Assembly: GCA_951406725.2 (NCBI GenBank)
Contig: OX597829.1
Location: 1,550,001-1,614,000, forward strand
DNA: 64,000 bases
Source of the DNA: Octopus vulgaris
Taxonomy: Eukaryota
Reading direction: 5' to 3'
In this document: in pieces, positions 19,116 through 30,349 of the stretch
Layout: each line of letters opens with the position of its first letter
How positions within the stretch are numbered: the first letter of the stretch is position 1
Translations under genes and position numbers: made by a program
Notes under the pieces: model-generated
What the model was told of the DNA's origin: nothing
Database searches by the model: none
The model's input: only the letters and a program-made list of their open reading frames with translations

Positions 19116-19596
19116 TGAGAAAGTAACAGTTAGTTCATGATATATATGTACGTATGTATGTGTGTGTGTGTGTGTGTGTGTGTGTGTGTATGTATGTATG
19201 TATGTATGTATGTATGTATGTATGTATGTATGTATGTTTGTATGTATGTATGTATGTGTGTACATGTATGTGCGCATGCATGTGCGGATGCCTATACGCA
19301 AGTATGTACTTATGTACTTACGTATGTATGTGAATATTTAGGAGAGTCTGTAGACGGGTCTGTGTGTGTGTACATGTGTATGTACATGTGAACGCATGTT
19401 TATGTACTGATATGTACTGTCAGTTCAAGTTGTATACATGACTGTTACCTTGTTGATGGTTGTATATATATATATAAATATATATACACATACCGGAGTA
19501 AACACATAAATGTGAAACAAGGTGGAAAAAAGAGTACTCAAATACCAGTGGTAGAGTAATATGCTTTATTTTAAGCAGCAGAAAATTCAACAAAAT

Positions 19597-19634
19597 CTGT
19601 TACTCTGAGTTTCTCGTTGCCGTTCATCAGACAG
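19597..19634 (-). ncRNA. Type I minimal hammerhead ribozyme
   Basis: ctgt-CTGATGA-a cg GCAA cg a-GAAAC-tcaga-GTA-acag; identical to 30206-30243. Confidence 0.8.
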
Positions 19635-20727
19635 TTTTTGCTAGAATGGAACCGATATATCAATTCAATCTAGACTCTTACAAACGCTACACGTTTAAAA
19701 AGAAATGGACTTGTTTGATTGGCCCTTTAGAAAAAAAACGGTCAATCTTCGAGCGATAAACAAAAAGGTCAAAAATATATGTATATATATATATAAAAAA
19801 GCTTATAAAAAATTATAAAATTCGAGGAAAAAACCTTACATTGAATGAAATACATATTGACGTTAATGAAGAAAGTATAAATTAATTCATAGGAATTAAA
19901 CCTGTTATAAATATTACACTGCAATACATATTTTTATTAAAATGTGCATATATATATCAACATACACAAAAAAAGATGCGCGCCAACGCCATACATATAC
20001 AGACGTATGAATATAAATCTAAATATACACATAAATGCATGTGTACATATATTCACGCAAAACCATCTCGCACGCAAGTTAAAAATCATGTATGTAGCGA
20101 TTCTCATATACTGAGTAAGGGGGGTAACGAAAGAAAGGAAGAGAGAGAAAAAGGAACGAAGGAGGGGTGGGGAAAAAAACGAAATAAGAAAAAATTATGT
20201 ATACAATCTGTGTAACGGCGTTATTGGCATATATGGAGACAAGTATACAAACAAGTTCGTATGGATACATACATACAGTCGTGTATATGTGTGCTTAAGC
20301 ACAAACATACTCTCACTTACACATACACAGATACGCATGCTTACAAATACATATCCTCGGCTATACACATACTTACATCAACATTTTAATTTTGACAACA
20401 TTGCTTTTTTTGAAAAAAACCTTGCTTTTTTTTAAAAGAATGGGTGCATTAATAAAAATATATACGAAAGACATATAAAATAAAATATAACACCCTATTT
20501 TGGATCATTTATAAATAATCAAGGTAATATAAATAATCAAGGTAATCCTATACAATACAGTAACCTGAAAACAGGGTCGAAGGTTTTTCCTGATGTATAT
20601 GTAGAAACATAAGACTTTGCTATACGGATTAAGATCCGCATAGCTTGGAAAACAAAATCCATCGTAGCGCTCATCGTTCAAGAGTCAAAATCAAAATTTC
20701 AAAAATCAAAAATACAAAATATATACT

Positions 20728-21024
20728 CTATCCATATGGTATATTTATATTCGACATTTTAAATTTAGCCGCGTGCCTACATAAGTTCATTAGCTCACTT
20801 CTTTGATTCAAAGAATTATTGTCTTTGAATAAGATGTACATTTTTTCTAATAGACAAAGTTTGCACTTGAAATTATTTTTGTAATTTTTTGTAAGCCTGT
20901 ATGGTGCCGCCCTGTCCAGAATGCTCCATGTCACGTTGAAAGGTGGGGCTTCCTTTTCTTTTAGTTCCCAGACATATTTTGCTAGGCTGGTCCTCTTCCT
21001 ATTCTCTGAGTATTTAAATGAATA
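20728..21024 (-). pseudogene. Penelope-like GIY-YIG endonuclease C-terminal fragment (Naiad-like CxxC...CxH motif)
   Basis: From ORF 20728..21093: YSFKYSENRKRTSLAKYVWELKEK...WSILDRAAPY...CKLCLLEKMYIL...LNQRSELMNLCRH; the upstream part of the ORF is (GAT)n microsatellite. Confidence 0.78.
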
Positions 21025-21094
21025 ATCATCATCATCATTATCATCATCAACAACAAGAACAATAATATTAAAAGAAATAATGGCTTCCAACAAT

Positions 21095-21492
21095 TAGGCG
21101 CATTGCATGCAATTTTTGAGGAAAGGGGTTGCGGTCAATACCATTTACCCCAGTACTTGACTGATACTATATTTTATCTCCTTTAAGCTGACCCCGCCAT
21201 GGATGTGAAATAACACCGCCAGGCATTTTGTCCGCTGCACCAACTATTCTAACAGTTCGCCACCTTGGGTTTGACAATGGTATTAATTCTTTGTACAGAA
21301 AGAAAGTCACAAGGCCTCACATTTACAATGAAGGGGCTAGTCGATTACATCGACCCCGGTGCACAAGTGGTATTTCATTTCATTGAATGACAGACAAATC
21401 GAGTCGACCTCAATGGAATTTGAACTCAGAACGTAAAGCCGAAAATAATACTACTTCGTTTGATGCACTAACTTTTCTGCCAGCTCGTCGCA
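21095..21492 (-). mobile_element. Two old, decayed family-A-related SINE copies
   Basis: Remnants gtcgattacatcgacccc, ggaatttgaactcagaacgt, ctgccagctcg. Confidence 0.55.
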
Positions 21493-27971: not shown

Positions 27972-28211
27972 ATAGTGGTTGTATACTGTCAATTCAACGT
28001 GACAGTCCCGTAAAGCGAATCACACCACTGCTATTTAGCCCTAGGAAGAATCGACGCTTCCTGTCGGCTTTGACACATTTCCTGTGTTCTTATATTGTCC
28101 TTATATTGTCAAAGCCGACAGGAAGCGTCGATGCTTCCTATGGCTAAATGGCGGTGATGTGATTCCCTTTACGGCACTGTCACGTTGAGTTGACAGTATA
28201 CAACGACTATA
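27972..28211. repeat. Fold-back inverted repeat, about 104-bp arms
   Basis: atagtggttgtatactgtcaa..gtcggctttgaca versus tgtcaaagccgac..ttgacagtatacaacgactat. Confidence 0.85.
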
Positions 28212-28964
28212 TCGCCCCACCACCACTCATGTCTCTCTGAGACATTTAGAAATTCAATATTTCTAAGAACTTCTTTAGTTGGGGTAATAAGTTACGTATG
28301 TGTAAATACCAACAATTTATGACTTCGTTGTACAAAAAACGTTGGGTGGTTCCCGACACAGCGTCTCACGACTTATTGACTGCATACCCCACCTATTTTC
28401 CGCGATCGACAGGATGATATCTGCTGCTATATATATATATATATATATATATATATATATATATATATATATATATATATATATATAGTAGTAGTAGGCT
28501 ATGGCTGTCATGAATTGCTTAATTTGCATATTTAGGCTTAGACGGATCTTTATTGAGTAAAGAATTATATTTATGTAAAACATTAGATAATCCAGAATGC
28601 TTTCAACTATTGTATATAGCTGAATATATATATATATATATATATATATATATACATATTCTTTTATTATTTTATTTGTTTCAGTCATTTGGCTGCGGCC
28701 ATGCTGAAGCACCGTCTCTTCTCTTCTCTTCTCTACTGCTGAACAGTTAACGACTTAAGATGAAAAAGAATAAGAAAAAAAATCAAGTATGGCTTTTCTT
28801 TTTTAACTATTGACTATTTTCTATCAATAAAAAACTTCGTACATTGTTAAATATAACATAAGTCGTTTTGAGTTACGCCGAATTGACGGTGCCAAAGGAT
28901 GATGGAATGGTGCTAGACATGGTTACCAACGCCGAGGAACTTTTAGAAGTTTATATTACATGAC

Positions 28965-29647
28965 TTAGCTTGGCTTCATACCCTTGCTTGACAAGGCTGG
29001 GGTCATTCCAAGTTAATGATCCCAGAGCCAATCAGGTCAACCAGGGATCTCCATCAGTGGTGGTCTCGTGCCAGCACCCTTACATCCTCCAAGGTGGCGT
29101 TAGCTTCTGGAGATTTTCTCCAATCACGTCAGTCAATGTGGTGCGGAGCCTGCCTCAAGCCCTCTTCCAGCCAGCAGCCGCTGCTTCGAACGACAGTAAA
29201 TCCCTTGTAGGATGATCTAGCGGGAGATGGAGAACATATTCGTACCAGCGCATGCGCCGGAGCCATATAAGAGAGCCACCTGCTCAACCGCATTCGCAAC
29301 AACGATATCTCTGATACCTGAGAAGAAGCTGAGCACCTGCAGCCAGCAACAACGACACCAGTCAGATACATAACTTGCTCCGCAGAGCCAGTACCGCTCC
29401 CCAGTTCAAGACACCCCGGGTGAAGGATACCAATATCAACGTCATCACCAGGGAGACCTCCTTCCTCGAACGCTGGAGGGAGCACTTCAGCCTTCTTCTT
29501 CATTACCGAGCTGTCTCAATCGATGCCAGCCTAACCGTCTCTCCAGACACAGCGGCAACTGACGATATTTGCAGACTCGATCCTGTCAACCCCGGTGAAG
29601 TCAATGCCGCCCTAGAAAATGTTAAGATAAAATGCGAATGCTTTTGA
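28965..29647 (+). mobile_element. Decayed RTE-like LINE fragment (EN-RT linker)
   Basis: ORF 29375..29647 has VKD...ITRETSFLERWREHFSLLL...EVNAALENVK, typical of the linker upstream of RT; raised GC. Confidence 0.62.
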
Positions 29648-30125
29648 CTCATTGATGGAAATTCCTCAACTTTATCTTAACCTAGAAGATATTATCTCCC
29701 TTATAATTCAGCAGGAGCACATGCCACGTATAAATATACATATACATAATGATATAAATAATATTAATTAATAAACATACATATGTTCTACATTCAATGT
29801 TACAGTTCTTCAATTTAATATTGTGATAATTACAATGGAGGGTTGCATTTACAACCCCTATCTCAATTTGTATATACATATATATATAAACACACACATG
29901 CACATACATGCACGCACGCGCACGCACACACACACACATATATATGTATGTGTGTGTGTGAGTGTGGATGTATATTTATATGTATATATATATATATATA
30001 TATATATATATATGTATATGTATGTATATATATGATATATATATATATATATATATATATATGTATATGTATGTATATATATGTATATATATATATATAT
30101 ATATATATATATATATATATATATG

Positions 30126-30349
30126 TATTTTAAGCAGCAGAAAATTCAACAAAATCTGTTACTCTGAGTTTCTCGTTGCCGTTCATCAGACAGTTTTTGC
30201 AAAAACTGTCTGATGAACGGCAACGAGAAACTCAGAGTAACAGATTTTGTTGAATTTTCTGCTGCTTAAAATAAAGCATATTACTCTACCACTGGTATTT
30301 GAGTACTCTTTTTTCCACCTTGTTTCACATTTATGTGTTTACTCCGGTA
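30126..30349. mobile_element. Palindromic Penelope-like 3'-end insertion with two hammerheads
   Basis: Perfect 148-bp palindrome 30126-30273 centred at 30199/30200; 30199-30349 is the reverse complement of 19491-19641; (TA)n on both sides. Confidence 0.85.
30206..30243 (+). ncRNA. Type I minimal hammerhead ribozyme (mirror copy 30156-30193 on minus)
   Basis: ctgt-CTGATGA-acggcaacga-GAAAC-tcaga-GTA-acag. Confidence 0.8.

What the first reader, a model, noticed from the sequence alone, without database searches (positions are those of the whole stretch)
19491..30349. Direct link between a GIY-YIG Penelope-like ORF and a hammerhead mini-element
Seen: the 151 bp at 19491-19641, which lies 1.1 kb downstream of a GIY-YIG C-terminal ORF on the same strand, reappears with no mismatch I could find, in reverse, at 30199-30349. 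Inference: the short (TA)n-flanked hammerhead elements are 5'-truncated copies of an autonomous PLE, and this family is very young, possibly still active. The CxxC...LN.RSE...CRH tail resembles Naiad-type PLEs, some of which are reported to encode selenoproteins and to target simple repeats.
Basis: partly seen in the sequence, partly recalled or inferred. Interest (0 to 1): 0.72.

Follow-up and report, generated by a model that had tools for sequence, protein, structure and literature searches.

The report
Hydra-type Penelope retrotransposon with mutation hotspot
The protein-coding fragment and the small ribozyme-bearing repeat are a long and a short insertion of one young, abundant jumping gene of a known group (Hydra-type Penelope-like, not Naiad, with no sign of selenocysteine), and about seven in ten of its copies carry a change at one otherwise invariant cysteine codon that likely arises during copying.

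Summary
In detail: 151/151 bases are identical. 28 of 29 other loci run from the GIY-YIG tail through the 1.1-kb UTR into the hammerhead end, so the link is real. The element is a Hydra-clade Penelope-like element, not a Naiad: one 711-aa ORF with RT then C-terminal GIY-YIG, RWK, DKT, CxCX5C, CxxC/CxH, a type I hammerhead and (TA)n targets. There is no selenoprotein sign: 8 open ORFs have no in-frame TGA, and no SECIS-like motif was found. The 'mini-element' is a two-armed palindrome (about 630 in the genome). 44 of 44 classifiable two-armed units pair one long and one short 3' end, and 38 of 100 arms stop 1-15 nt before the hammerhead. This fits twin priming at two internal sites with run-off at an RNA 5' end (inferred). 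This scan already noted that pattern on other DNA, including this genome. New here: invariant Cys564 reads TTC in 68, TGC in 29 and TAC in 3 of 100 listed copies. The state is scattered over the copy tree and is the only difference between two arms of one young insertion. Arms diverge 0-3%, so the family is young; present activity is untested.

The parts
19493..21023 (-). 5'-truncated, single-armed copy of the Hydra-type PLE (last 1.53 kb of a ~3.4-kb unit), long 3' end
   Evidence: 93-98% identical to 29 other loci, and homology stops at 21023; nearest held copy 98.3%
20728..21023 (-). C-terminal 98 codons of the RT-GIY-YIG ORF (CxxC, E, N, CxH; stop TAG); this copy has private damage
   Evidence: full 707-711-aa ORFs in 8 copies elsewhere
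19642..20727 (-). 1.09-kb 3' UTR, part of the element; 11-bp hairpin at 20644-20619; no SECIS-like motif
19590..19641 (-). Type I hammerhead motif, predicted cut after 19601; the dimer form is the lowest-energy cofold
   Evidence: same layout as Hydra-2_aMil in File S2 of PMC8557442
19493..19563 (-). 71-nt tail between the short 3' end (19564) and the long 3' end (19493); in full units it is the leader between hammerhead and 5' UTR
19463..19492 (.). (TA)n-like target remnant
30199..30347 (+). Long arm of the palindromic mini insertion: hammerhead 30199-30250 plus tail 30277-30347
30126..30200 (-). Short, inverted arm of the same insertion: hammerhead 30200-30149, no tail, shares GC with the long arm
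29980..30400 (.). (TA)n tract split by the mini insertion (29980-30125 and 30348-30400)

Best explanation
Both stretches are insertions of one Hydra-clade Penelope-like retrotransposon family, and each two-armed insertion likely forms when the element's protein cuts both strands of a (TA)n tract and primes two cDNAs at two fixed internal sites 71 nt apart just downstream of the hammerhead. SHOWN: unit anatomy (hammerhead, tail, 67-nt 5' UTR, 711-aa RT-GIY-YIG ORF, 1.1-kb UTR, hammerhead); two discrete 3' ends at about 1:1; one long plus one short end per two-armed unit; a pile-up of arm 5' ends just upstream of the hammerhead; purifying selection on the ORF. INFERRED: the two cDNAs are joined head to head through short self-complementary ends. 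On RNA that starts about 13 nt before the hammerhead, both run off after about 80 and 150 nt and give the palindromic minis, which are dead by-products. On read-through, tandem or circular RNA they continue through the UTR and ORF and give the long copies and pseudo-LTRs. The uncut RNA is the main template. INFERRED, less firmly: during copying the G of the Cys564 codon is misread in most events, so about 70% of the copies that reach this codon lose a predicted zinc ligand of the endonuclease linker.
For: Link and ORF: (8 open ORFs of 707-711 aa in 7 of 33 loci examined). Motifs invariant or nearly so in the 40 aligned proteins (2 of this family, 38 relatives). The fold's best PDB match is TERT (model pLDDT 89, E 3e-10). 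pN/pS 0.18-0.40 over the 10 pairs of 5 equal-length ORFs. Ends: 1,647 short and 1,513 tail-bearing exact matches. 44 L+S, 0 L+L and 0 S+S units, besides 6 with a partial tail and 9 with an arm ending elsewhere; edge-cut units left out; two of the 44 are one duplicated locus. 5' pile-up: 38 of the first 100 hammerhead matches on C1 stop within 15 nt; the other 62 are spread over 3.3 kb. About 630 head-to-head hammerhead pairs against 21 pairs that both end near the cut site. 15 of 25 junction loci end 84-181 nt into the leader or ORF start, and many of them begin at the hammerhead, so the leader junction is the template. This matches in vitro data on the anole element: both strands cut and extended, two internal RT starts, predicted dimer, uncut RNA used (PMC11167929). 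Hotspot.
Against: No RNA data: no transcription start, strand, cleavage or circle was observed, and the only positional hint is an Inr-like CCATTCT (recalled consensus, weak). The two arms show no sign of different templates (8 of 67 non-CpG differences shared with other copies, 4.8 expected). Arms agree at the hotspot in 16 of 18 pairs, more than independent passes predict (P=0.002). Both facts also fit fold-back. Many units appear single-armed, including the window's long copy. Two junction sequences make up about 20 of about 50 listed palindromes, which could reflect amplification of minis. No tree against reference PLEs was built. Stem II has only 2 base pairs, and the monomer's lowest-energy fold is not the hammerhead. 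No excess of 5' ends sits at the hotspot, although that sample is biased toward copies covering it.
Confidence: 0.8

Rival explanations
1. Fold-back: one cDNA is primed, its 3' end snaps back at the CTAG/TTTTT region and copies itself, and the second end is trimmed to the short site.
For: Junctions are palindromic or nearly so. Arms are closer to each other (0.2-3.3%) than to the median copy (2.3-6.7%) and differ by private changes. 16 of 18 arm pairs agree at the hotspot. Self-priming was proposed for PLE palindromes (PMC3846280, passages).
Against: It needs an extra precise trimming step to give 44 of 44 L+S units. Short-ended single arms are common. Arms of L252 differ at the hotspot and at no other internal site over about 1.85 kb, and L251 and L032 also differ there. 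Two RT starts and extension of both strands are shown in vitro for another PLE.
Confidence: 0.25
2. The minis are a self-propagating non-autonomous family (SINE-, MITE- or retrozyme-like) mobilised by the PLE.
For: About 630 copies, with two recurrent junction sequences. Retrozymes derive from PLE ends (bioRxiv 10.64898/2026.07.22.740005, part 1 of 5).
Against: Over half of the listed junctions are varied. Arm lengths form a continuum up to full length. The arms are head to head, so the two hammerheads lie on opposite strands, unlike tandem retrozymes. Minis lack the leader downstream of the tail, where the anole protein is proposed to bind.
Confidence: 0.1
3. One reading: a Naiad-type, possibly selenoprotein-coding PLE.
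For: (TA)n targeting is shared with Naiads, and Octopus Naiads exist.
Against: The endonuclease is C-terminal; the motif is DKT, not DKA; a canonical hammerhead is present. There is no in-frame TGA in 8 ORFs. Over the 11 cysteine codons of the reference ORF, one TGA was seen in one copy among 39-84 alignments per codon. The only SECIS-pattern hit in 3 UTRs is the hammerhead itself.
Confidence: 0.01
4. For the hotspot: Phe564 is a tolerated, inherited allele that is shuffled among subfamilies by recombination or gene conversion, not a recurrent copying error.
For: T is the majority state; 6 of 8 open ORFs carry Phe; there is weak clustering on the 61-row tree (12 changes against 14.8 shuffled, 7 of 200 as low); most arm pairs agree.
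Against: Neighbouring coding sites keep their tree signal (most need 1-3 changes; this site needs 10, the most of any coding site). There are three states, G, T and A. Cys is in 40 of 40 aligned proteins and 73 of 74 motif hits in metagenome loci. Discordant arms occur in 3 of 19 pairs (P about 2e-4 at background divergence).
Confidence: 0.25

Closest known systems
Hydra clade of C-terminal EN+ Penelope-like elements (Craig et al. 2021, PMC8557442), e.g. Hydra-1_Obim, Hydra-2_Amil, Hydra-1_Ajap
   Same: Single ORF RT plus C-terminal GIY-YIG, RWK, DKT, CxCX5C, CxxC and CxH, canonical hammerhead with actc-N-gagt stem III, (TA)n target, inverted 5' copy (as in Penelope-13_HM). Blocks match Hydra-1_Obim by eye.
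   Different: A different family from Hydra-1_Obim: its hammerhead is unrelated in sequence and the protein is visibly diverged (compared by eye only). The unit is 3.35-3.44 kb against 'generally <3 kb', owing to a 1.1-kb UTR. The tail is 71 nt against the usual 30-40. Pseudo-LTRs and tandems are present. Cys564 hotspot.
Poseidon element of Anolis carolinensis (Frangieh et al. 2024, PMC11167929)
   Same: Two internal RT start sites defining a tail, AT-rich target, both strands cut and extended, hammerhead not needed for insertion.
   Different: Different clade. There the starts lie inside the ORF (+111 to +118); here they lie in the leader before the ATG. Nothing here was tested in vitro.
Naiad PLEs, including the clam and spider selenoprotein families (PMC8557442)
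   Same: (TA)n preference, partial tandems, inverted copies, tail.
   Different: N-terminal endonuclease, DKA, CCHH, no canonical hammerhead, UGA plus SECIS in some; domain order, DKA, hammerhead and UGA were tested and not met here.
Metazoan non-LTR retrozymes and dispersed PLE hammerheads (PMC4209133; bioRxiv 10.64898/2026.07.22.740005)
   Same: Type I hammerhead predicted to work as a dimer; short opposite-strand hammerhead pairs are noted in Schistosoma.
   Different: Retrozymes are head-to-tail tandems; these minis are head-to-head stubs.

Membership tests
Hydra-clade PLE | Single ORF, RT followed by C-terminal GIY-YIG | tested here: met
   Pfam and PDB sequence searches found nothing
Hydra-clade PLE | RWK motif; GxKF/Y not conserved | tested here: met
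   RWK at 37-39; GNKY at 51-54 resembles GxKY but G51 is not conserved in the 40-row alignment
Hydra-clade PLE | DKG changed to DKT | tested here: met
   D113 K114 T115
Hydra-clade PLE | CxCX5C linker | tested here: met
   C562, C564, C570 in Cys-bearing copies; residue 564 is Phe or Tyr in 71 of 100 listed copies
Hydra-clade PLE | No CCHH (no cysteine pair inside the GIY-YIG core); CxxC and CxH flank E and N | tested here: met
   No Cys between VVY583 and YTG600; C667xxC670, E673, N686, C695xH697
Hydra-clade PLE | Canonical hammerhead | tested here: met
   Motif and pairing; also in 12 of 49 related metagenome loci with a strict pattern, 0.05 expected; cleavage not tested
Hydra-clade PLE | (TA)n insertion | tested here: met
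Hydra-clade PLE | Generally shorter than 3 kb | tested here: not met
   Unit 3.35-3.44 kb; a tendency in the paper, not a diagnostic (Penelope-13_HM is listed at 3,045 bp)
Hydra-clade PLE | RT groups with Hydra references in a phylogeny | not testable with these tools
   Reference sequences were seen only as supplement text and compared by eye
Naiad PLE | N-terminal GIY-YIG | tested here: not met
Naiad PLE | DKA motif; no canonical hammerhead | tested here: not met
Selenoprotein-coding PLE | In-frame UGA at conserved cysteines | tested here: not met
   0 in 8 ORFs; 1 stray TGA in one copy
Selenoprotein-coding PLE | SECIS just after the stop | tested here: inconclusive
   SECISearch was not available; a simple pattern scan of 3 UTRs hit only the hammerhead, and the hairpin after the stop does not match that pattern
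Non-LTR retrozyme | Head-to-tail tandem units each with a hammerhead | tested here: not met
   Minis are head to head

The most novel reading that the evidence does not exclude
The element's RNA carries a site-specific chemical mark (or a misalignment trap) on the G of an invariant zinc-ligand cysteine codon. Its own reverse transcriptase misreads that G in about 70% of events, so most long daughter copies are born endonuclease-defective: a built-in or host-imposed brake on transposition, recorded in hundreds of genomic copies. A recurrent change at copying is well supported (about 0.7). That an RNA modification causes it and that it disables the enzyme are untested.
Probability: 0.3. Interest if true: 0.72.

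Novelty: new member of a known kind. Interest (0 to 1): 0.4.

Why it matters
The family itself is an ordinary addition to a described clade that already has an Octopus member. Its value is as a large, young natural data set (over 3,400 hammerhead ends) for the unsolved PLE transposition cycle: strict pairing of one long and one short end, and a sharp 5' stop before the ribozyme, give testable predictions. The Cys564 hotspot would matter more if an RNA-level cause were confirmed. It would be a case of an RNA mark written into germline DNA that inactivates most progeny of a retroelement, and a warning that a majority consensus of this family would carry the probably defective residue.

Tried and rejected
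DNA search of the genome with the 151-mer returned nothing because common words are skipped; exact patterns were used instead. Rfam did not detect the hammerhead. Pfam and PDB sequence searches missed the ORF; the fold search identified it. Insertion polymorphism: one lay was not carried out, and in the second the junction lay in a skipped repeat (21016-21077), so there is no verdict. The four runs, labelled organisms A, B and C, hold the ORF at depths mostly hundreds to thousands of times that of the flank. Expression: no RNA holder listed. Test for two different templates per insertion: negative; the first, unfiltered version was inflated by columns next to gaps. Hammerhead-cut RNA as the main template: rejected (21 against about 630). 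The drop from 2,662 to 713 exact matches when the pattern is extended upstream is confounded by subfamily variants and was not used. RT stop at the hotspot: not seen, biased sample. Post-insertion DNA damage as the cause of the hotspot: disfavoured because near-identical young arms already share T. An anticodon-loop mimic at the site (UU-GCA-AA) was considered, but the local fold shows no such stem. Paper searches and the scan look-up found nothing on such a hotspot; the library lacks most subscription papers and Repbase, and bioRxiv supplements were not seen.
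Full report
OBSERVATION. The 151 bases at 19491-19641 match the reverse complement of 30199-30349 without a mismatch. The shared end holds a type I hammerhead motif (19641-19590, predicted cut after 19601). As a monomer it does not fold best as a hammerhead, but the cofold of two copies gives the two-core dimer at -21.4 kcal/mol, the form described for metazoan PLE hammerheads (PMC4209133, part 1 of 4 and passages).

THE LINK IS REAL. A search of the window's own 2.8-Gb genome with the ORF tail gave 1,058 candidates, 40 scored and 30 loci. 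All 29 non-self loci match from 21023 at 93-98%, and 28 continue through the 1.1-kb UTR to the hammerhead end. Extending 5' gave the whole unit: hammerhead, 71-nt tail, 67-nt 5' UTR, ORF, UTR, hammerhead; 3,437 bp in L038. An exact leader junction occurs 30 times. I fetched 25 of these plus 8 other long loci and found 8 open ORFs of 707-711 aa in 7 of the 33 loci. They differ by 0.05-4.5%, with pN/pS 0.18-0.40 among the five of equal length. The window's long copy is a 5'-truncated, single-armed, privately damaged copy, 98.3% identical to its nearest held relative.

WHAT FAMILY. Pfam and PDB sequence searches are blank. A 40-row alignment gave a confident model (pLDDT 89) whose best structural match is telomerase RT. 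The protein search found 1,074 relatives at E<=1e-20 among 7,996 scored; the best is 58% identical. Craig et al. 2021 (PMC8557442; I read parts 2-5 of 10 of the main text, part 2 of 59 of the supplement, and search hits) define Naiads by an N-terminal endonuclease, DKA and lack of canonical hammerheads. They define the Hydra clade by a C-terminal endonuclease, RWK, DKT, CxCX5C, no CCHH, CxxC and CxH around E and N, a canonical hammerhead and (TA)n targets. This element has every one of those Hydra motifs. An Octopus member, Hydra-1_Obim, is published; by eye it shares the protein blocks but has a different hammerhead, so this is another family. I could not build a tree with those references. 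There is no selenoprotein sign: no in-frame TGA in the 8 ORFs, one stray TGA among all cysteine codons read, and no SECIS-like hit except the hammerhead in a simple scan of 3 UTRs. That the host is an octopus is my guess from assembly size and this kinship, not a test.

HOW THE COPIES FORM. Copies end at one of two places, 71 nt apart: 1,647 short and 1,513 tail-bearing exact matches. Among two-armed units with both ends visible, 44 pair long with short, none long with long, none short with short. 6 have a partial tail, 9 have an arm ending elsewhere, edge-cut units were dropped, and two of the 44 are one duplicated locus. The tail at one end only is known qualitatively (PMC8557442; PMC3846280, passages). 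In the first 100 hammerhead matches on C1, 38 arms stop 1-15 nt upstream of the search motif, 26 of them at 9-13 nt, and the rest are spread over 3.3 kb. About 630 head-to-head hammerhead pairs exist (625 and 635 matches on the two strands), but only 21 pairs end near the cut site. RT that had stalled on the ribozyme would stop before it, not just after copying it, so a template 5' end is the simpler reading (inference). 15 of 25 junction loci end 84-181 nt into the leader or ORF start, which shows that the hammerhead-leader junction is what gets copied. This fits the anole element in vitro: both strands cut and extended, two internal starts that define the tail, predicted dimer, uncut RNA as substrate (PMC11167929, parts 1-2 of 4). 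I therefore favour twin priming with head-to-head joining. Fold-back remains possible: arms come from one source and differ by private changes. Earlier notes of this scan report the same two-arm, one-tail pattern on other DNA, including this genome; I saw them after my own counts.

AGE. The 151-bp identity is weak evidence, since 31 of 88 long ends match this end without a difference. Arm-to-arm divergence is better: 132 differences in 25,703 bases over 35 comparisons, some units counted twice, range 0-3.3%. One unit has no internal substitution over about 3 kb (L097). With a rate borrowed from octopus work (distance 0.09 = 25 My, PMC13282606, passages), that is about 0.8 My for 0.6% divergence and under about 0.14 My for the youngest. 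Gene conversion between arms could make these look too young. The family is also in runs labelled as three other organisms. Polymorphism and expression could not be tested.

UNEXPECTED: A ONE-SITE HOTSPOT. Cys564, the second cysteine of CxCX5C, is present in 40 of 40 aligned proteins (2 of them from this family, both Cys-bearing) and in 73 of 74 motif hits in metagenome loci. In this family the codon's middle base is T in 68, G in 29 and A in 3 of the first 100 of 466 genomic matches (counted by hand), and only 2 of 8 open ORFs keep the cysteine. On trees built without the site it needs 10 changes in 41 rows and 12 in 61 rows, close to shuffled values of 11.9 and 14.8. It is the most homoplastic coding site in the parts of the ORF scanned (from about codon 155 on); only homopolymer edges in the UTR match it. 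Of 18 arm pairs in that listing, 10 are T/T, 6 G/G and 2 discordant; L032 is a third discordant pair. In L252 it is the only internal difference in about 1.85 kb. So the change likely arises around the copying step, from G, and is mostly shared within an insertion. Methylated guanosines cause RT misincorporation (PMC7144921, PMC5066629, passages; the passages did not give the G>T direction, which I recall). Misalignment next to the U run is an alternative (recalled), and so is an inherited, tolerated allele. Against a blocking mark, 5' ends do not pile up at the site (biased sample). Paper searches and the scan's notes showed nothing like it.

VERDICT. The palindromic minis are likely dead twin-primed stubs. 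Interest 0.4, carried mainly by the Cys564 hotspot, which would deserve about 0.7 if an RNA-level cause and loss of function were shown.

Noticed in passing
window 37855-40607 (+); second decayed copy 31975-33704 (-): Non-LTR retrotransposon ORF in two overlapping frames, 579 and 359 aa: RVT_1 E 1e-27, zf-RVT E 1.4e-5. The C-terminal RPD..D motif suggests a restriction-like endonuclease, R4/Dong type (recalled).
   Followed up: partly
window 1304-1558, 23679-23937, 34637-35072, 43438-43699, 48431-48689, 49379-49616, 58674-59645 and others: A ~240-bp interspersed repeat at 80-93% identity, with 182-bp tandem units at 58674-59645. A second repeat family lies at 18525-18711, 26037-26539, 30408-30806, 56592-56999 and 60040-60663; probably SINEs.
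   Followed up: no
window 20644-20619 (-): 11-bp hairpin about 85 nt after the stop codon; the 128-nt region folds at z -2.6. It does not match the SECIS pattern; function unknown.
   Followed up: partly
L097:6353-6362 region (codons 562-565): The hotspot G lies in a 10-mer, UGYAAUUGCA, that is self-complementary in both codon variants through G-U pairs; a possible RNA dimer contact, untested.
   Followed up: no
L114:3697-3733 and 3870-3904: Two arms begin at or within 2 nt of the predicted hammerhead cut site, a hint that cut RNA is sometimes copied.
   Followed up: partly
L125:2012-8871; L097:369-7893; L096: Multi-unit insertions: two tandem full units differing at 1 of 2,133 coding bases (L125), and two full units head to head (L097); they fit read-through or circular templates.
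   Followed up: partly
L099 and L100 (C1:67.41 and 67.47 Mb): The same mini insertion with the same flanks in inverted orientation 60 kb apart: a segmental duplication or assembly duplicate.
   Followed up: no
L021, about 60 bases past the element's 3' end: A tRNA-Glu-like sequence follows the (TA)n tract (seen; identity by eye, recalled).
   Followed up: no
unit position 2664 (3' UTR, L118 numbering): A/G difference between arms in 4 of 21 comparisons, some counted twice; could be A-to-I editing or a second hotspot.
   Followed up: no
L142-L220: 79 related elements (40-50% identity) sit on metagenome contigs, so the clade is far more widespread than the 27 families listed in the 2021 supplement; 12 of 49 scanned have a strict type I hammerhead.
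   Followed up: partly
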